From contig JAPPDF010000087.1 of assembly GCA_028875575.1 (NCBI GenBank), positions 14,147 to 78,146 of the forward strand: a stretch of DNA of 64,000 bases, given 5' to 3'. Of this stretch, positions 1,414 through 64,000 are shown one piece after another. The translations under genes and the position numbers were made by a program. Positions within the stretch are counted from its first letter, which is position 1. Each line of letters begins with the position of its first letter. This DNA comes from Acidobacteriota bacterium. GTDB taxonomy: Bacteria > Acidobacteriota > Terriglobia > Versatilivoradales > Versatilivoraceae. Below the pieces are notes generated by a model. It was not told the DNA's origin and ran no database searches. It was given only the letters and a program-made list of their open reading frames with translations.

Positions 1414-1713
1414 ATGTCCGCGGACCTGATCTTTTTGATGTTCATCCTGATGCTTGCCGTCTTTCTGGGTCTCGAGTTGATTTCCAAGGTGCCGGCGACG
1501 CTGCACACTCCGCTGATGTCGGGGTCCAACGCCATTTCCGGGATTACGCTGGTCGGAGCCCTGCTGGCCGCCGGGGCCGCCGACAGCACGCCCCTCAGCA
1601 TCGGTCTGGGCACGGCCGCGGTCACGCTGGCCACCATCAACGTGGTCGGGGGGTACCTGGTGACTCAGCGGATGCTGTCCATGTTCAAGAGGAAGCGCGG
1701 GGACCGGAAGTGA
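1414..1713 (+). CDS. pntAB: NAD(P) transhydrogenase subunit alpha part 2 (PntAB, membrane segment)
   Basis: 99-aa hydrophobic ORF between pntAA and pntB. Its 4-bp overlap with pntB (1710) indicates an operon. Confidence 0.85.
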   Translation: MSADLIFLMFILMLAVFLGLELISKVPATLHTPLMSGSNAISGITLVGALLAAGAADSTPLSIGLGTAAVTLATINVVGGYLVTQRMLSMFKRKRGDRK

Positions 1714-3095
1714 GCGTTACCATCCAACTGGCTTACCTGCTGGCGGCCTTCCTGTTTGCCCTGGGTCTGAAGTTGATGAGTTCCCCCGACACGGCCCGCT
1801 GGGGGAATCTGGCCTCTGCCTGTGCCATGCTCCTGACGGTGGTCGTCACCCTCCTCCATACGGAGGTGGTGGAATACCAGTGGATCCTGCTGGGAGTTCT
1901 CATCGGTTCGGCCATAGGATCCCTTGCGGCAACCCGCCTGCAGCTCACCGAGATGCCGGAACTGGTGGCGCTGTTCAACGGCTTTGGCGGGGGAGCCAGC
2001 CTGCTGGTGGGCTGGGAAGCCTACCATCGCCAGCCGCTTCAGGACCCGTTGGGTGCGGTGACCATCCTGCTGGCGGTCGTGATCGGCGGGGTCACCTTCA
2101 GTGGCAGTCTGGTGGCCTGGGGCAAGCTGAAGGAGATCGGTTGGCGATCCTTTCGCCTCAACAGGCCGTTGCTTTTCCCCGGTCAGCAGCCGATCAATTT
2201 CCTGTTGCTGGCGCTTCTCTGCCTGGGCGGCGTGCTCTACGGTCTCGATTCCCCGGAGAGCCAGACGCTGTTCCTGTTCCTGATGGGCTTGGCCTTTCTG
2301 CTTGGCATCATGGTGGTGGTCCCCATCGGCGGGGCCGACATGCCGGTGGTCATCTCGCTTCTCAACAGCTATTCCGGGCTGGCAGCATGCGCGGCAGGAT
2401 TTGTGATCTTCAACAACATCCTGATCGTGGCCGGTGCGCTGGTGGGAGCCAGCGGTCTCATACTGACCAACATCATGTGCAAGGCCATGAACCGGTCTCT
2501 CACCAACGTGCTGTTCAGCGGGTTCGGAGCCGTTGCCGGGAAAGGCGGCAAACAGGTCCATGGCGAGCCCCGACCCATCTCGGTCGAGGACGCCTACTTC
2601 ATCCTGGAAGCGGCCCGGTCGGTGGTTTTCGTGCCGGGCTACGGCCTGGCGGTCGCCCAGGCCCAACACGGGGTGATGGAGCTCGGGGAGATCCTGGAAG
2701 ACAATGGCTGCGAAGTCCGCTATGCCGTACATCCGGTCGCCGGCCGGATGCCGGGACATATGAACGTCCTGCTGGCAGAGGCCAACGTGTCCTACGACCT
2801 TCTGGTCGAGATTGACGACGTCAATCCCACCATGGAGACGGTGGATGTGTGTGTGGTGATTGGCGCCAACGACGTGGTCAACCCCGCCGCCAGGGACGAC
2901 GCCGAGAGTCCCATTTACGGAATGCCGATCATCGAGGTTGACCGGGCCAGGGTGGTGATTGTGTTGAAGCGTTCGATGGCAGCCGGTTTTGCGGGAATTG
3001 AAAACCCCCTCTTCTACAAGGACAACACCCGCATGCTCTTCGGAGATGCCAAGAGCAGCCTGAACGCGGTGCTGGGGGAGTTCAAAAGGAGTTAA
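1710..3095 (+). CDS. pntB: NAD(P) transhydrogenase subunit beta (PntB)
   Basis: 461 aa with an N-terminal multi-TM region and a C-terminal NADP(H)-binding dIII domain (GYGLAVAQAQH...VIGANDVVNPAA). Its TAA stop lies inside the TTAA at the MITE boundary. Confidence 0.92.
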   Translation: MSVTIQLAYLLAAFLFALGLKLMSSPDTARWGNLASACAMLLTVVVTLLHTEVVEYQWILLGVLIGSAIGSLAATRLQLTEMPELVALFNGFGGGASLLVGWEAYHRQPLQDPLGAVTILLAVVIGGVTFSGSLVAWGKLKEIGWRSFRLNRPLLFPGQQPINFLLLALLCLGGVLYGLDSPESQTLFLFLMGLAFLLGIMVVVPIGGADMPVVISLLNSYSGLAACAAGFVIFNNILIVAGALVGASGLILTNIMCKAMNRSLTNVLFSGFGAVAGKGGKQVHGEPRPISVEDAYFILEAARSVVFVPGYGLAVAQAQHGVMELGEILEDNGCEVRYAVHPVAGRMPGHMNVLLAEANVSYDLLVEIDDVNPTMETVDVCVVIGANDVVNPAARDDAESPIYGMPIIEVDRARVVIVLKRSMAAGFAGIENPLFYKDNTRMLFGDAKSSLNAVLGEFKRS

Positions 3096-3342
3096 CCCGC
3101 ATTTCTCACCAAGTCGCTGGAGGCATTACAAGAAGTAGATTATCTTCAGCACCTTGATTGGCTCCATGTCAAGGGCTTGCGCATCACAGACGGCCCTGGG
3201 CATGCCCTGGCTTGTCCTTTCCCTTTCAGCGCACACATGCTCCCTCGACCGTAGAAACCGCTACGCTCTTCGGTCGCGAGCACGCGCTGAAGGGGAAATT
3301 CCTGCGCCATGATCATGCCCCCTGGTGAGAAATGCGGGTTAA
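3092..3342. mobile_element. MITE copy 1 (~251 bp) with 20-bp terminal inverted repeats TTAACCCGCATTTCTCACCA / TGGTGAGAAATGCGGGTTAA, flanked by TTAA
   Basis: Near-perfect TIRs read directly in the sequence, with an internal long hairpin (CCCTTTCAGCGC...GCGCTGAAGGG). A second inverted copy lies at 56312..56560 with ~80% internal identity and conserved TIRs. Confidence 0.8.
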
Positions 3343-4142
3343 TCCACATATTCCTGTTGAAAAATCCTGCCGTCCTCCAATCGCATGGCCGTCAGCGGCC
3401 CTCCGCGGACACAGTTGCTGTCGAGGCCTGCGGTTCCGGGCGCCTGGTGCAACCCCAGGGCGGCCCAATGCCCGAAAAGGACGGTGGCGGAGCGGTTGCG
3501 CCGGCCGGGAAACGAAAACCAGGGGATGAGGGAGTCGGGCATCTCCGACAGTGGGCCCACGAAGGTGTGGTCCATGCTCCCGTCCGGGTTGAGCGTCCTC
3601 AGTTGGGTCATGGCACGGAGCGCCGCCGCCAGTCGCAATAATTCGGATTCTTCCTCCTTGATTGCCGACAGGTTCCTCGCCGTCAGGCACTGCAACAGCT
3701 CCGCGGCTCCCGGCCCCCTCAGGCGCCGTCGAACTTCCTCTCCCAGTTGGAGTGCCCGATCCACCGTCCATTCCGGCAACAGTCCGGCGTGAACCAGGAC
3801 ATACCCTCCTTCGCGGTGAACCAGAGGCCGGCCTCTGAGCCAGGCGAGCAATTCCTCGCGGTCCCCGGCAGCCAGTATCGAGCTCAGTTGAGGGTTCTTC
3901 AGGGAAGATCGAACTCCCAGGCCACAGGCCAGCAGCTTGAGGTCGTGGTTTCCGAGAACGCAGACGGCTCGATCGCCTAGATTCCGCGCCCAGCGGAGGA
4001 CCTCCAGGGATCTCGGTCCGCGGTTGACCAGGTCGCCCACCAGCCAAAGTCGATCCCGGCCGGGGTCGAACCGGATGGCTTCCATGAGGCGCTGCAGGGT
4101 CCGGAAGCATCCGTGAATGTCGCCGATCGCGTAAATAGCCAT
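3339..4142 (-). CDS. apaH: bis(5'-nucleosyl)-tetraphosphatase, symmetrical (ApaH; metallophosphoesterase)
   Basis: N-terminus MAIYAIGDIHGCFRTLQRLMEAIRFDPGRDRLWLVGDLVNRGPRSLEVL...GNHDL closely matches the ApaH consensus. Its stop codon is supplied by the TTAA at the MITE right end. Confidence 0.9.
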   Translation of the reverse strand: MAIYAIGDIHGCFRTLQRLMEAIRFDPGRDRLWLVGDLVNRGPRSLEVLRWARNLGDRAVCVLGNHDLKLLACGLGVRSSLKNPQLSSILAAGDREELLAWLRGRPLVHREGGYVLVHAGLLPEWTVDRALQLGEEVRRRLRGPGAAELLQCLTARNLSAIKEEESELLRLAAALRAMTQLRTLNPDGSMDHTFVGPLSEMPDSLIPWFSFPGRRNRSATVLFGHWAALGLHQAPGTAGLDSNCVRGGPLTAMRLEDGRIFQQEYVD

Positions 4143-54507: not shown

Positions 54508-54688
54508 TGAGATTTTTGCAAAATCCGCAACGGGTCAGGTCATCTTGCCAGCAAACCTGAGGTTCTGCCTATTTCAATATCGGGTGCGAACTGGTGAAAA
54601 AAGCTGTCTAACCACAAAAAGCACAAAAGTCACAATGTGTGTTTTTGTGCCTTTTGTGGCCATTTCCGGTGAACGTTCCGCTGGCGAA
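54508..54688. repeat. structured intergenic repeat family C, copy 1 (~180 bp) containing an 18-bp-stem hairpin CCACAAAAAGCACAAAAG...TTTTTGTGCCTTTTGTGG
   Basis: Direct reading. A second copy at 63503..63685 has ~85% identity in the same orientation. Confidence 0.7.
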
Positions 54689-54779
54689 TATTGCAAAAGG
54701 CTCATGATGTATGAATCGGCCCGGTGAAAATTGCGGGCCCCATTCTTGAATAGGCAGGGTGTCAGGAGACAAAGCGGAT

Positions 54780-55550
54780 ATGCTGCTGGTCATCGACGTC
54801 GGCAACACCAATACCTGGCTGGGAATCTACGAGGGCTCCACGCTGAGGAAAGACTGGCGCCTGGAAACCAAGGAGCGTCAATCCGCGGATGAATACGGAA
54901 TATTGATCAGGAACCTCTTCAGTCTGGCGGGCATCGATTTTACCCACATCTCGGATATCGTGATTGCATCGGTGGTTCCTCCGCTCAACACCGTGCTGGA
55001 GCAGACAGCCTTGAAGTATTTCAAGGTTGCCCCCCTGTTTGTCGAGCCGGGCGTCAAGACCGGAATGCCCATCCTCTACGATCCACCTTCGGACGTGGGG
55101 GCCGACAGGATCGTCAATGCGGTAGCCGCCTTTCATCGTTACGGGGGACCCTGCATCGTGGTGGACTTTGGGACAGCCACCACCTTCGACGCGATTTCCA
55201 GTAAGGGAGAGTACCTGGGAGGGGTCATCAGTCCCGGCCCGGTGATCGCAGCCGAGGCGCTGTTCACCAGAACAGCCCGACTTCCCAGAGTCGAGGTCAA
55301 GCCGTCTGTCAACGTGATCGGCACCTCGACGGTCGCCAGTATCCAGTCGGGCCTCTATCACGGGTATGTCAGCCTGGTTGACGGCATCCTGCAGCGCATG
55401 ATTGGGGAGTTGGGTCCTGAAACCACGGTGGTTTCCACGGGTGGTCAGGCCGCTCTTTTCGGGTCCGGCACCCGCCATATTCAACATATCGATTCCCACT
55501 TGACGCTGGATGGATTGCGCCTCATCCACGAGAAAAACTTTCCTCGGTGA
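54780..55550 (+). CDS. coaX: type III pantothenate kinase
   Basis: MLLVIDVGNTNT... matches CoaX/Baf. It lies downstream of birA, a common pairing. The track ORF starts at GTG 54759. Confidence 0.9.
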   Translation: MLLVIDVGNTNTWLGIYEGSTLRKDWRLETKERQSADEYGILIRNLFSLAGIDFTHISDIVIASVVPPLNTVLEQTALKYFKVAPLFVEPGVKTGMPILYDPPSDVGADRIVNAVAAFHRYGGPCIVVDFGTATTFDAISSKGEYLGGVISPGPVIAAEALFTRTARLPRVEVKPSVNVIGTSTVASIQSGLYHGYVSLVDGILQRMIGELGPETTVVSTGGQAALFGSGTRHIQHIDSHLTLDGLRLIHEKNFPR

Positions 55551-55595: not shown

Positions 55596-56315
55596 ATGGA
55601 AAATTACTTCAACTACTTTACCGAGATCGAGGAGCACTTCCAAAAGCGGCGCGGGCAGGCCCGTCCCCTATCGCCTCTGGACTGGTCCCTGATCGAATCC
55701 CTGCGAGAGGCCGGCGTCCCCCTGGAGGTGGTGCTGCGCGGGGTGGACCGGGCTTTCGACAAGCGCTCCAAGAGGCGAAGGGTGGTGGGAAGGGTGAACA
55801 GCCTCGCCTACTGTACGCAGGCCATTCTGGCTGAACACGAGCGCCGGAATGAGAGTCGGGCCGGTCGCCACGAGCCGGCAGCCCAAGCTGCCGAAGGAGA
55901 TTTGGAAGTATCGCAGTTGCTGGAACTGCTCGAAAGCGCCCGTCGCCAACTGGAGGCGCTCCCGGGACGTTCCAAAGCGGTTGAGCTGCCGGCCTTGGAA
56001 ACCGTGGTGGGGACGGTTGTCGACTCGCTGAACGAGATCATGCTGGAAATCCAAGCATCCCGGTCGCTGGACTATGAGGCGCTGGAACTGAAGCTGAATA
56101 CCCTGGAAGAACGCATTCTGGCGGCCATCTCCTCGGGTATAAGCGAAGAGTCTCTGCTGGAAGCGAAGCAGGAGACTCGGCGGGAGATCCAACGGAACAA
56201 GCGGGGCTTGAAGGCCGAGCACATTGCCATGCTGGAAGGCAAGTTGATGCGCAAGAAACTCCTACAGGAATTTGGCGTTCCGCGGCTGAGCCTCTTTTAC
56301 CTCCCCCTCAATTAA
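55596..56315 (+). CDS. hypothetical protein (possible DnaD-like domain)
   Basis: 239 aa with an N-terminal helical domain (LSPLDWSLIESLREAGVPLEVVLRGVDRAF...NSLAYCTQAIL) and a C-terminal coiled coil. Its TAA stop sits inside the MITE TTAA boundary. Confidence 0.45.
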   Translation: MENYFNYFTEIEEHFQKRRGQARPLSPLDWSLIESLREAGVPLEVVLRGVDRAFDKRSKRRRVVGRVNSLAYCTQAILAEHERRNESRAGRHEPAAQAAEGDLEVSQLLELLESARRQLEALPGRSKAVELPALETVVGTVVDSLNEIMLEIQASRSLDYEALELKLNTLEERILAAISSGISEESLLEAKQETRREIQRNKRGLKAEHIAMLEGKLMRKKLLQEFGVPRLSLFYLPLN

Positions 56316-56560
56316 CCCGCCTTTCTCACCAGGGGGCGTGATCGTGGCGCAGGAATTTTCCCCTCAGCGCGTGCTCGAGAGCGAAGAGCGTAGCCGCCAC
56401 TACGGTCGAGCGAGCATGGATGCGCTGAGGGGAAAAGGACAAGCCAGGGCGCGCCCAGCACCGTGTGTAACCGCAAGGCGTCCCAATCGGACCACCAAGT
56501 TGCTGAAAATAAATGACCTTTCATTGTGAGTCCAGCGACCTGGTGAGAAATGCGGGTTAA
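56312..56560. mobile_element. MITE copy 2 (inverted relative to copy 1), TIRs TTAACCCGCCTTTCTCACCA / TGGTGAGAAATGCGGGTTAA, flanked by TTAA
   Basis: Same TIRs as 3092..3342 with one mismatch, and the interior matches the reverse complement of copy 1. Confidence 0.8.
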
Positions 56561-56566
56561 CCGGCC

Positions 56567-57868
56567 ATGAAGACCTTTCAGGTCACGGTCGAGCGAATGA
56601 TCCCGGGTGGCAAGGGAATTGCCTTTCTTGAAAAGAAGGCGGTCTTTCTCCCGCTGGTAGTCCCCGGTGATCGTGTCCTGGTCAAGCAGGCGGCCGACCG
56701 TGGCAGCTACCTTGAAGTGCTGGACGGTGAGCTGATCGAAGCCTCCCCCGATCGGCAGACGCCTCCCTGTCCCTACTTTGGTCGGTGCGGGGGATGCGAT
56801 TTCCAGCAAATGACAGTTCCCCGACAGCTCGACAGCAAGACGGAAATCTTGACCGACGCTCTGCGGCGGGTGGGTCGCATTGGCGGTTCCCACAGCGGAA
56901 TCGTGCGGATTCCTTCCCCTGACTCGGCCTACCGGAATCGCTTGCAACTGAAGGTCCTGGCTCGAAACGGGAGAGTCTCCTGGGGATTTTTCGAACGGGC
57001 TTCCCACCGGGTAGTGGAAGTCGACCGGTGCCGGATCGCCCTGGACGGGCTGTGGGCGATCCTTCCCGATCTGCGGGCCTTCCTGGAGCGCTCGCCAATG
57101 ACGGTGGGCTGTCTGAGCGAGGTTGAGATCTTCCAGGGAGATGGAGAGGAAGCCTTGATCGACCTGAAGGTGATGCCGGGCGCCGAAAACCTTTCCACCC
57201 TCAGGCGAGATCTGCTGGCCGCTGGGTTCGACTGGGAAAGTCGGCCCGTGAGCCTCTACGTGTCCCGATCGCAGAAGCGCACGCTTCGGGTGTCGGGGCC
57301 CGGCTTTGTCCACAAGACGGTGGGAAATTGGACATTCCGGGTGAGCCGTGGATCCTTTTTTCAAATCAACGAATGCATGCTGGAGTCCTTGAGCCGACGG
57401 GCAACGCAGGGTCTGGCAGGATCTCGCGCCCTCGATCTCTTCTGTGGAGTGGGGTTCTTCACCCTGCCGCTGTCAAAGACGTTCGAACTGGTGTGGGCAG
57501 TGGACCAAAACGCCGCGGCCATCCTGGATATGGAAGCGAACGCCCGTAGGAACGGGCGCCGCAACTGCCGCATTTTTCACAGAGACCTTGATACCTTTCT
57601 GCGAGACCGCCGTCGGGACCTGGAGGAGGTCGACCTGGTTCTGCTGGACCCGCCTCGAACCGGAATCCCCAAGACCACTGTCGGGAGGGTCGCCGACCTG
57701 AGGGCTTCCAGGGTGGTCTACGTCTCCTGCGATCCCTCCACCCTTGCCAGGGATCTGAGAATCATTCTGGGCAGGGGCTACGCGATCGAATCCCTGGAGA
57801 TCGTGGACCTGTTTCCGCATAGCCATCACATGGAGACCATCGCGAGACTGAAACGAACGGGCGGTTGA
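56567..57868 (+). CDS. rlmD: 23S rRNA (uracil-C5)-methyltransferase RlmD/RumA family (TRAM plus 4Fe-4S plus SAM-MTase)
   Basis: Cys cluster CPYFGRCGGCDFQ and methyltransferase motifs (LDLFCGVGFFTLPL, DPPRTG). Confidence 0.85.
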   Translation: MKTFQVTVERMIPGGKGIAFLEKKAVFLPLVVPGDRVLVKQAADRGSYLEVLDGELIEASPDRQTPPCPYFGRCGGCDFQQMTVPRQLDSKTEILTDALRRVGRIGGSHSGIVRIPSPDSAYRNRLQLKVLARNGRVSWGFFERASHRVVEVDRCRIALDGLWAILPDLRAFLERSPMTVGCLSEVEIFQGDGEEALIDLKVMPGAENLSTLRRDLLAAGFDWESRPVSLYVSRSQKRTLRVSGPGFVHKTVGNWTFRVSRGSFFQINECMLESLSRRATQGLAGSRALDLFCGVGFFTLPLSKTFELVWAVDQNAAAILDMEANARRNGRRNCRIFHRDLDTFLRDRRRDLEEVDLVLLDPPRTGIPKTTVGRVADLRASRVVYVSCDPSTLARDLRIILGRGYAIESLEIVDLFPHSHHMETIARLKRTGG

Positions 57869-63502: not shown

Positions 63503-63685
63503 TTGATGAGTTGAGCTTTTTGCAAAGTTCGCAGCGGGGCAGGTCATCTTGCCCGCAAACCTGAGGTTTTGCCTTTTTTAATACTGGGTGCGATCTGGGG
63601 ATAAATGCTGTCTAACCACAAAAAGCACAAAGGGCACAAGTTGTGTTTTTGTGCCTTTTGTGGCCATTCCCGGCAAACGTCCCTC
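63503..63685. repeat. structured intergenic repeat family C, copy 2
   Basis: Aligns with 54508..54688 (GGTCAGGTCATCTTGCC...CTGTCTAACCACAAAAAGCACAAA...TTTTTGTGCCTTTTGTGGCCATT). Confidence 0.7.
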
Positions 63686-63689
63686 CACT

Positions 63690-63770
63690 CTCCACTCTTC
63701 ACACTTCTCACTTCAAACTTCTCACTTCAAACTTCTCACTTCACACTTCTCACCTCACTCTTCGGAAAAT
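63690..63770. repeat. tandem repeat of ~12-bp unit CTTCTCACTTCA(A/C)A with CTCTCCACT-like units (~6 copies)
   Basis: Direct reading. Related CTCTCCACT arrays occur at 32975..33005 (inverted) and 33106..33140. Confidence 0.75.
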
Positions 63771-64000
63771 ATTCCCTCCAACGCCGGTCGACGGTTCGTT
63801 CAACGTCAGGCGCAGAGGCGACCTCGGGGGGATAGGAGGGCTTCATTCTGGCATCCACCAGGATGGGAGCCTGGTAGCAGAGATGATGGCGCCGCACGGT
63901 GGTCTGAGCCGCATGGACGTCGGCGGCCGGCTCGAAGCGTGTGAAGACCGACCACAGGAAGCGGGAGGAGTCCTGGGATATGGAGGGGTCGTCGGTCAGG
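63736..64000 (-). CDS. partial CDS (C-terminal end of an unidentified protein; continues beyond the window)
   Basis: Open frame on the minus strand from the window edge to a TGA at 63736..63738 (...RFLWSVFTRFEPAADVHAAQTTVRRHH...). The C-terminal codons run into the tandem repeat, so the true stop is uncertain. Confidence 0.35.
   Translation of the reverse strand, partial: LTDDPSISQDSSRFLWSVFTRFEPAADVHAAQTTVRRHHLCYQAPILVDARMKPSYPPEVASAPDVERTVDRRWREYFPKSEVRSVK

What the first reader, a model, noticed from the sequence alone, without database searches (positions are those of the whole stretch)
3092..3342. MITE with conserved 20-bp TIRs inserted into a TTAA shared by two convergent genes, so that pntB and apaH both take their stop codons from the duplicated TTAA
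The element is bounded by TTAA at both ends. The pntB TAA (3093..3095) lies within the left TTAA, and the apaH stop on the minus strand (3339..3341) lies within the right TTAA. The ancestral state is most simply two convergent genes overlapping at a single palindromic TTAA. The element then inserted into it and duplicated TTAA, so each gene kept a stop. This shows target-site duplication and the element's TTAA target preference directly.
Basis: partly seen in the sequence, partly recalled or inferred. Interest (0 to 1): 0.6.

Follow-up and report, generated by a model that had tools for sequence, protein, structure and literature searches.

The report
Small transposon at shared stop codons
A 243-bp non-coding mobile element (a MITE moved by IS1380-type transposases) inserted into the four bases TTAA where two convergent genes, pntB and apaH, shared their stop codons; it duplicated those bases, so both genes stayed intact, which is a clean but ordinary example of transposon biology.

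Summary
A 243-bp element (3096-3338) lies between two TTAAs. The pntB stop is in the left TTAA and the apaH stop is in the right one. Three more distant relatives have a single CTAA there.

The element is a MITE. Its 16-18-bp terminal repeats (CCCGCATTTCTCACCARG) match those of full-length insertion sequences that encode IS1380-family transposases, the bacterial relatives of piggyBac.

Two refinements:
- The "20-bp TIR" includes the 4-bp duplication.
- The target is not TTAA specifically. Across 120 loci from several phyla the flanks are YTAR: CTAG 61%, TTAA 13%. In this window CTAG is 15-fold depleted, which probably explains why TTAA was used.

Further results:
- A second copy lies at 56316-56556 and also sits on a gene's stop codon.
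- A different subfamily member independently occupies the same pntB-apaH TTAA in another lineage.
- The element carries a ~130-nt internal hairpin with strong compensatory covariation across phyla. This hairpin is absent from the full-length ISs.

Verdict: real, correctly read, and a new member of a known kind. Interest is modest.

The parts
1710..3095 (+). pntB (NAD(P) transhydrogenase beta subunit), 461 aa. Its stop TAA is at 3093-3095, inside the left TTAA.
   Evidence: ORF list. NCBIfam NF006974, E 1.2e-141 (below that model's curated cut-off but full length). Same 461-aa length in empty-site relatives.
3092..3095 (.). Left copy of the 4-bp target-site duplication (TTAA).
   Evidence: The empty sites hold a single tetranucleotide.
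3096..3113 (+). Left terminal inverted repeat, CCCGCATTTCTCACCAAG.
   Evidence: Identical 14-18 nt at the ends of IS1380-family ISs.
3114..3191 (+). Variable module. It is 96-97% identical to copies at unrelated loci (L042, L048) but only ~51% identical to the element at the same site in L127.
   Evidence: Alignment A2 and the identity matrix.
3192..3322 (+). Conserved ~130-nt internal hairpin module: nested helices with compensatory changes and a conserved apical sequence (...CCGTAG...GCTACGCTCTTCGG...).
   Evidence: RNAalifold. Pair counts: 95.8% paired, 13 of 22 pairs compensatory, slid controls at most 55%. Covariance model hit at 149.6 bits. 96% paired over 35 copies.
3321..3338 (-). Right terminal inverted repeat (CCCGCATTTCTCACCAGG on the - strand).
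3339..3342 (.). Right copy of the 4-bp target-site duplication (TTAA).
3339..4142 (-). apaH (symmetrical bis(5'-nucleosyl)-tetraphosphatase), 267 aa. Its stop TAA is the reverse complement of 3339-3341, inside the right TTAA.
   Evidence: ORF list. NCBIfam NF001204, 295.6 bits against a cut-off of 176. Most homologues are also 267 aa.
55596..56315 (+). 239-aa ORF whose stop TAA (56313-56315) lies in the left TTAA of the second copy.
56312..56560 (-). Second copy of the element: 241 bp at 56316-56556, in the opposite orientation, ~79% identical to copy A, with TTAA at 56312-56315 and 56557-56560. The next gene's ATG is at 56567.
   Evidence: Covariance model hit at 56332-56462 (-), 142.4 bits.

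Best explanation
The element is a 243-bp non-autonomous transposon (a MITE). It carries the terminal inverted repeats of a clade of IS1380-family insertion sequences but encodes no transposase.

Proposed mechanism: a transposase supplied in trans recognises the 16-18-bp ends. It integrates the element at a 4-bp YTAR target, preferably a palindrome (CTAG or TTAA), through cuts staggered by 4 nt. Gap repair then duplicates the four bases. YTAR reads as a stop codon (TAR) on both strands. Here the target was the single TTAA in which convergent pntB and apaH overlapped and both terminated. After duplication each gene keeps a complete TAA and an unchanged protein, so the insertion costs no coding sequence.

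Shown here: the element's boundaries; the filled and empty sites; the unchanged gene lengths; the shared TIRs with IS1380 elements; the YTAR flanks; the multi-copy and multi-phylum distribution.

Inferred: trans-mobilisation by an IS1380 transposase (none is present in this window); the 4-nt staggered cut; and that scarcity of targets plus selection explain why copies sit on stop codons.
For: 1. Anatomy. Perfect 20-nt inverted repeat including TTAA. Both stop codons lie in the TTAAs.
2. Empty sites. L126 (96-97% nt identity) has a single TTAA with a 4-bp gene overlap. L128, L129 and L130 have a single CTAA. All five contigs encoding the identical ApaH are filled or break inside the element.
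3. The tetranucleotide comes from the target. Among 60 paired elements, matched flanks are CTAG/CTAG 22 times and TTAA/TTAA 3 times. Close relatives of copy A (L048 at 94%, L057 at 88%) have CTAG/CTAG.
4. Partner. L074 (1764 bp, CTAG/CTAG) and L009 (1711 bp) carry the same TIRs and encode 471- and 458-aa proteins. These match Pfam DDE_Tnp_1_4 (E 1e-150) and NCBIfam transpos_IS1380 (379-397 bits against a cut-off of 180). A third such element is L030. A 1655-bp IS on plasmids of Stutzerimonas and P. putida has the TIR CCCGCATTTCTCAC and CTAG on both sides at two different sites.
5. Stop-codon association. 47 of 163 element ends abut an open frame of at least 100 codons that ends in the flank's stop, against 10% of all YTAR sites in the same loci.
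6. Target scarcity in this window. CTAG is seen 15 times against 226 expected, and TTAA 34 against 92. Ten of the 34 TTAAs end long frames.
7. IS1380 is the recognised prokaryotic counterpart of piggyBac (PMC5718144; used as an outgroup in PMC10813416). From my own knowledge, piggyBac makes 4-bp TTAA duplications and has CCC...GGG termini.
Against: - No IS1380 transposase is encoded in the 64-kb window (tblastn), and I could not scan the rest of this genome. Mobilisation in trans is therefore inferred.
- The MITE shares only the TIR and at most ~40 bp of the right end with the full-length ISs found. It is not a simple deletion derivative of any of them.
- At this single site, a 4-bp TTAA duplication cannot be told apart by sequence from a TA duplication by an element ending A...T.
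- Only 25 of 60 paired elements have perfectly matched flanks, and no matched CTAA/CTAA or TTAG/TTAG pair was seen. I attribute the mismatches to decay of old copies, but they leave some room for other models.
- No clean empty site was found for the second copy.
Confidence: 0.9

Rival explanations
1. The duplication is only TA, as in IS630/Tc1-mariner-mobilised MITEs such as RUP or Correia. On this model the element proper ends in A...T here and in G...C in most other copies.
For: - At this site the two models predict identical sequence.
- Some pairs fit a G...C-ended element with a TA duplication better than a 4-bp duplication: TTAG...CTAG three times and TTAG...CTAA once.
Against: - The elements that carry these TIRs and encode a transposase are IS1380 family, not IS630.
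- The outer and inner flank bases are strongly associated: CTAG 99, TTAA 22, against TTAG 18 and CTAA 16 (odds ratio about 7.6 from the counts).
- TTAA/TTAA matched pairs occur 3-4 times, where independent outer and inner bases would give about 0.1.
- No CTAA...TTAG pair was seen, which is what an A...T-ended element in a CTAG target would produce.
- Near-identical copies would have to differ in just their terminal base, always in step with the outer base.
Confidence: 0.06
2. The TTAA belongs to the element, giving a true 20-bp TIR, and nothing was duplicated.
For: TTAA is palindromic, so it extends the inverted repeat to a perfect 20 nt.
Against: - All four empty sites retain one tetranucleotide between the two genes. 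If TTAA were carried in, pntB and apaH would lack their stops in the empty state.
- Copies 94-96% identical to this one are flanked by CTAG instead.
Confidence: 0.01
3. It is an IS5-family MITE, because YTAR/CTAG with a 4-bp duplication is the classic IS5-group target (from my own knowledge).
For: The flank spectrum is CTAG > TTAA, TTAG, CTAA, which is YTAR.
Against: - All five full-length elements found with these TIRs encode IS1380-family transposases.
- No IS5-type transposase was found next to any TIR in the 120 loci.
Confidence: 0.02
4. History rival: there was one ancestral insertion at the pntB-apaH TTAA, inherited by the window lineage and the L127 lineage, and then removed seamlessly from the L126 lineage by piggyBac-style precise excision. 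The alternative is two independent insertions.
For: - L127 (91-94% nt identity) carries an element at the same TTAA in the same orientation, while the closer L126 is empty.
- From my own knowledge, piggyBac relatives are known for footprint-free excision.
Against: - The variable module of copy A is 96-97% identical to copies at unrelated loci (L042, L048) but only 50.7% identical to the L127 element.
- The L127 hairpin is closest to L026 (93.9%), not to copy A (87.9%).
- The two occupants are therefore different subfamily members, which favours two separate hits.
Confidence: 0.12

Closest known systems
IS1380-family insertion sequences. Examples: the 1655-bp IS encoding WP_034018616.1 on P. 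putida pKF715A and a Stutzerimonas megaplasmid, and the elements in L009 and L074.
   Same: - Identical terminal 14-18 bp (CCCGCATTTCTCAC...).
- 'CC' termini.
- The same tetranucleotide, mostly CTAG, on both sides.
   Different: - The MITE is 243 bp and has no transposase.
- Its interior is unrelated to these ISs, apart from at most ~40 bp at the right end.
- It carries a conserved hairpin module that the ISs lack.
piggyBac transposons (eukaryotic superfamily paired with IS1380; PMC5718144).
   Same: - 4-bp palindromic target containing TA. At this locus it is literally TTAA, duplicated on insertion.
- Termini begin CCC and end GGG.
- Related DDE transposase superfamily.
   Different: - This element is prokaryotic.
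- The family prefers CTAG to TTAA.
- Seamless excision was not tested.
- The MITE itself encodes nothing.
Bacterial MITEs such as Correia/NEMIS (Neisseria), RUP (pneumococcus) and ERIC/YPAL (reviewed in PMC2229807).
   Same: - Short and non-coding, with TIRs.
- TA-containing duplication.
- Many copies, lying next to or between genes.
- Predicted to fold into stable stem-loops and to be co-transcribed with neighbouring genes.
   Different: - Different mobilising family: RUP is linked to IS630, and those elements mostly give a TA duplication.
- G+C-rich rather than A+T-rich.
- Found across several phyla with an almost invariant TIR.
IS5-group elements that target YTAR/CTAG.
   Same: The same target consensus and duplication length (from my own knowledge of IS5).
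   Different: Different transposase family and different TIRs. Membership was rejected.

Membership tests
MITE (miniature inverted-repeat transposable element) | Short (under ~500 bp) and without a transposase gene. | tested here: met
   243 bp. Only 52-67-aa frames lie inside it. Its interior varies modularly between copies.
MITE (miniature inverted-repeat transposable element) | Terminal inverted repeats. | tested here: met
   16 of 16 perfect, 17 of 18. Nearly invariant in 23 aligned copies.
MITE (miniature inverted-repeat transposable element) | Target-site duplication shown by comparing filled and empty sites. | tested here: met
   A single TTAA (L126) or CTAA (L128-L130) at the empty site, against TTAA...TTAA when filled.
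MITE (miniature inverted-repeat transposable element) | Multiple dispersed copies. | tested here: met
   Two copies in the window. 60 paired elements.
MITE (miniature inverted-repeat transposable element) | TIRs shared with an autonomous element that could mobilise it. | tested here: met
   L009, L074, L030 and the plasmid ISs L212/L213 carry the same TIR and encode a transposase.
IS1380-family derivative | The partner's transposase belongs to IS1380 (DDE_Tnp_1_4 / NF033539). | tested here: met
   Pfam E 1e-150 to 1e-156. NCBIfam 379-397 bits against a cut-off of 180.
IS1380-family derivative | 4-5-bp direct repeats and 'CC' termini (family description recalled from ISfinder; IS1247 is listed with a 5-bp DR in PMC3281130). 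| tested here: met
   4-bp duplication. Termini are CCCGC...GCGGG.
IS1380-family derivative | Actual mobilisation by that transposase. | not testable with these tools
   This needs a transposition assay. No transposase is present in the window.
piggyBac-like mechanism (works-like, not membership) | Strict TTAA target. | tested here: not met
   CTAG at 100 of 163 TAR-flanked ends, TTAA at 22.
piggyBac-like mechanism (works-like, not membership) | Seamless excision that restores a single target. | tested here: inconclusive
   The closest relative is empty while a more distant one is filled. However, the two occupants are different subfamilies, so no excision is required.
IS5-family MITE | A partner encoding an IS5-type transposase. 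| tested here: not met
   All partners found are IS1380.
Known structured RNA family (Rfam) | A match to an Rfam covariance model. | tested here: not met
   No hit at gathering threshold. The only hit at E up to 10 is mir-2068 at 15.9 bits against a gathering score of 99, which is a chance match.

The most novel reading that the evidence does not exclude
The ~130-nt internal hairpin is not passive filler but a selected functional module, acting as RNA or as single-stranded DNA. It keeps its nested helices through compensatory changes across at least three subfamilies, in Acidobacteriota and Gammaproteobacteria. It has conserved loop and apical sequences, and it is absent from the full-length IS1380 elements.

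Two candidate roles:
1. It helps a piggyBac-related transposase bring together the two ends of a very short element.
2. It insulates or stabilises transcripts when the element lands on stop codons between convergent genes.

Either role could explain the family's spread across phyla. A related possibility is that this IS1380 clade excises seamlessly, as piggyBac does.
Probability: 0.25. Interest if true: 0.6.

Novelty: new member of a known kind. Interest (0 to 1): 0.35.

Why it matters
For this locus it matters little. The insertion changes no protein, and MITEs with target-site duplications are textbook biology. It is a very clean natural demonstration, with filled and empty sites, that a YTAR-targeting element can land on overlapping convergent stop codons and leave both genes intact. 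The same 4-bp site was hit twice independently.

More broadly, the TIR defines a MITE family I could not find described in the papers I searched. It appears to be mobilised by IS1380 (piggyBac-related) transposases. It is spread across Acidobacteriota, Gamma- and Alphaproteobacteria, Planctomycetota and other groups. It breaks short-read assemblies at its copies. Its internal hairpin covaries strongly and its function is unknown. The family could be useful for annotating metagenome-assembled genomes and for studying how IS1380 and piggyBac transposases choose targets.

Tried and rejected
- Rfam, whole window at gathering threshold and the element at E up to 10: nothing relevant.
- Promoter and terminator scan of 2900-3550: no promoter. 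The one weak terminator-like hairpin is no more than the shuffles give.
- IS1380 transposase in the window by tblastn: none.
- MITE against PLSDB plasmids with distant blastn: no match.
- Empty site for copy B: the metagenome scan gave only one close relative (L131, ~85% nt). It has a TTGA stop and a different 90-bp spacer, so it is not a clean empty site. The exact-protein look-up gave a contig that breaks inside the element.
- Deletion-derivative origin: the MITE interior does not match L009 or L074 beyond the ends. The hairpin covariance model finds nothing in five full-length ISs with filters off.
- Strand-specific function: no orientation bias relative to the gene whose stop the element abuts (9 against 6). 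G-U and C-A mismatch counts do not clearly favour one strand.
- IS5-family origin, TA-only duplication and 'TTAA is part of the TIR' were each considered and rejected (see the rival explanations).
- Literature searches for IS1380 with MITE, IS1380 with CTAG, sponge-symbiont MITEs and 'Versatilivorator' found no description of this family.

Full report
**1. The observation**

The + strand reads ...AAAAGGAG-TTAA-CCCGCATTTCTCACCAAG...CCTGGTGAGAAATGCGGG-TTAA-TCCACAT.... The repeat finder reports a perfect 20-nt inverted repeat, 3092-3111 / 3323-3342. Four of those bases are the palindromic TTAA, so the terminal repeat proper is 16 perfect bases (17 of 18).

The 461-aa ORF 1710-3095 (+) is the PntB beta subunit. 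It follows pntAA (268-1404) and the small pntA 4TM subunit (1414-1713). The 267-aa ORF 3339-4142 (-) is ApaH. The pntB TAA is at 3093-3095 and the apaH TAA is the reverse complement of 3339-3341.

The 16-mer end is found 6 times in the window with up to 3 mismatches, against 0.82 expected. Four of these hits are the ends of two complete copies.

**2. A second copy**

The stretch 56316-56556 (241 bp) is the same element in the opposite orientation, ~79% identical to copy A, and again lies between two TTAAs. Its left TTAA contains the stop of a 239-aa ORF (55596-56315). Its right TTAA lies 6 nt before the ATG of the next gene.

**3. Empty sites**

Contigs encoding exactly the window's ApaH all carry the element or break inside it. 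I then looked up the contigs encoding ApaH homologues.

| Locus | nt identity to window flanks | State of the pntB-apaH junction | Calls |
|---|---|---|---|
| L126 | 96-97% | Empty.
| L128, L129, L130 | 87-95% | Empty. Single CTAA (pntB then stops with TAG) | 25-27 |
| L127 | 91-94% | Filled. 241-bp element at the same TTAA, in the same orientation | 24, 27 |

Both proteins are 461 and 267 aa in all of these loci. The ancestral state was therefore two convergent genes sharing a YTAR tetranucleotide, and the insertion added 243 + 4 bp.

**4. What the element is**

The hosts are MAGs of Acidobacteriota (including Ca. Versatilivorator, class Terriglobia), Gamma- and Alphaproteobacteria, Planctomycetota, Myxococcota and others.

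Sixty paired elements were found. Most are 240-243 bp, with further size classes of about 126-186 and 254-349 bp.

Three loci hold full-length elements with the same ends:
- L074: 1764 bp, CTAG/CTAG flanks, 471-aa ORF.
- L009: 1711 bp, 458-aa ORF.
- L030: frameshifted.

Their proteins are IS1380-family transposases: Pfam DDE_Tnp_1_4 at E 1e-150 and NCBIfam transpos_IS1380 at 379-397 bits against a cut-off of 180.

A 55%-identical transposase (WP_034018616.1) sits in a 1655-bp IS on a Stutzerimonas megaplasmid and on P. putida pKF715A. That IS has the TIR CCCGCATTTCTCAC and CTAG on both sides at two different sites.

The transposases are only 47-55% identical to each other, yet the TIR is conserved. 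It is thus the recognition sequence of a whole IS1380 clade, which explains its near-invariance across phyla. IS1380 is the recognised prokaryotic counterpart of piggyBac (PMC5718144, PMC10813416). From my own knowledge, the TTAA-CCC...GGG-TTAA layout seen here mirrors piggyBac ends.

**5. Target and duplication**

Over all ends, the four bases outside the TIR are CTAG (99-100), TTAA (22), TTAG (18) and CTAA (16). This is YTAR.

Matched pairs are CTAG/CTAG 22 times and TTAA/TTAA 3 times. The remaining pairs differ at one or two positions of many kinds, which fits decay of old copies.

Copies 88-96% identical to copy A sit at unrelated loci. L048 and L057 lie between matched CTAG/CTAG. The tetranucleotide is therefore target-derived and is neither part of the element nor TTAA-specific.

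A TA-only duplication by an element ending A...T cannot be excluded from this one site alone. It is disfavoured by the strong association of the outer and inner flank bases, by the excess of TTAA/TTAA pairs, and by the IS1380 partner.

In the window itself CTAG is 15-fold depleted (15 observed, 226 expected). TTAA is less depleted (34 observed, 92 expected). This probably explains why both local copies used TTAA.

**6. Why copies sit on stop codons**

YTAR contains TAR on both strands. Ten of the window's 34 TTAAs end frames of at least 100 codons. Family-wide, 47 of 163 element ends abut such a frame ending in the flank's stop, against 10% of all YTAR sites in the same loci. Scarcity of targets inside G+C-rich genes, together with selection against disruptive insertions, is enough to explain the pattern. 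This step is inference.

**7. The same site was hit twice**

Copy A's variable module (3114-3191) is 96-97% identical to L042 and L048, which lie at other loci in Ca. V. vitaminiformans. It is only 50.7% identical to the element in L127's pntB-apaH site. L127's hairpin is closest to L026 (93.9%), not to copy A (87.9%). The two occupants are therefore different subfamily members. Two independent insertions into the same 4 bp are more likely than one insertion followed by seamless loss in L126.

**8. Internal structure**

The element folds very stably on either strand (-120 kcal/mol with z = -9.3, and -123 kcal/mol with z = -7.4).

Beyond the TIR pairing, the right-hand ~130 nt (3192-3322) is conserved across Acidobacteriota and Gammaproteobacteria as a rod of four nested helices. 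In 23 copies, 95.8% of cells pair and 13 of 22 pairs show compensatory changes. No shuffle reaches the observed values, and slid controls reach at most 55% pairing and at most 5 compensatory pairs.

A covariance model built from this region finds it in 35 or more copies, including a third and much more divergent gammaproteobacterial subfamily. There the helices have entirely different sequences (for example GGGCATG/CATGCCC against ATCACGG/CCGTGAT) but are still 96% paired. The internal-loop sequences (GTCTT......AATCCTGCGC) and the apical sequence (CCGTAG...GCTACGCT.TTCG) are conserved.

The hairpin is always inside a MITE and never in the five full-length ISs. No Rfam family matches it. No orientation bias relative to adjacent genes was seen, and it contains no promoter or canonical terminator.

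Its function is open. Possibilities are an aid to transposition of a very short element, a transcript insulator or stabiliser, or concerted evolution of a palindrome without any function.

**9. Verdict**

The finding is real and was correctly interpreted. Two corrections apply: the TIR is 16-18 bp rather than 20, and the target is YTAR with CTAG preferred, not TTAA specifically.

In kind it is ordinary: a MITE with a target-site duplication. The family itself, an IS1380-mobilised MITE found across phyla with a covarying internal hairpin, appears undescribed in the literature I could search. I classify it as a new member of a known kind, of modest interest.

Noticed in passing
window 56312-56560: A second copy of the element (241 bp, opposite orientation, ~79% identical) also lies between two TTAAs. 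The upstream 239-aa ORF takes its stop from the left TTAA, and the next gene's ATG is 6 nt after the right TTAA. The only close relative found (L131) has a TTGA stop and an unrelated 90-bp spacer there.
   Followed up: partly
window 3192-3322 and 56332-56462 (-); alignments A2, A4, A5: A ~130-nt internal hairpin is conserved across Acidobacteriota and Gammaproteobacteria. It shows strong compensatory covariation (13 of 22 pairs; 96% paired in 35 copies) and has conserved loop and apical sequences. It is absent from full-length IS1380 elements and matches no Rfam family.
   Followed up: partly
L127 3301-3549 compared with window 3092-3342: In a relative with 91-94% nt identity, the same pntB-apaH TTAA is occupied, in the same orientation, by a different subfamily member (variable module only 51% identical). 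The closest relative (L126) is empty. This points to recurrent independent insertion into one 4-bp site.
   Followed up: yes
whole window: CTAG is about 15-fold under-represented (15 observed, 226 expected from base composition). TTAA, CTAA and TTAG are depleted 3-6-fold. A large share of the remaining YTAR sites are gene stop codons.
   Followed up: partly
window 54536-54680 and 63540-63684: This is a second, unrelated interspersed repeat of ~145 bp. The two copies are in the same orientation and ~86% identical. It contains an A/T-rich 17-nt hairpin (CCACAAAAAGCACAAAA / TTTTGTGCCTTTTGTGG). One copy lies just upstream of the type III pantothenate kinase gene (54759-55550).
   Followed up: partly
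window 63680-63790 (- strand): A short tandem array of GAAGTGAGAAGT(T/G)T-like units lies next to the second copy of the 145-bp repeat.
   Followed up: no
window 54721-54737; also 54565-54584 / 54738-54757: There is a solo TIR-like 16-mer with 3 mismatches and no YTAR flank, which is probably a chance match. A weak 20-nt inverted repeat (75% complementary) brackets the region that holds it and part of the 145-bp repeat.
   Followed up: no
L122, L123, L125, L211: Short-read metagenome contigs of this organism end 25-90 bp into the element. The repeat therefore breaks assemblies, which implies many near-identical copies in the genome.
   Followed up: no
L012, L045, L063, L071, L117, L025, L095, L027, L115, L054, L112, L029, L064 and others: The same TIR bounds elements of several other size classes (about 126-186 bp and 254-349 bp). 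Several distinct MITE families, or internal deletion and insertion variants, therefore share this IS1380 recognition end. Some gammaproteobacterial copies carry an extra palindromic insert inside the hairpin arms.
   Followed up: no
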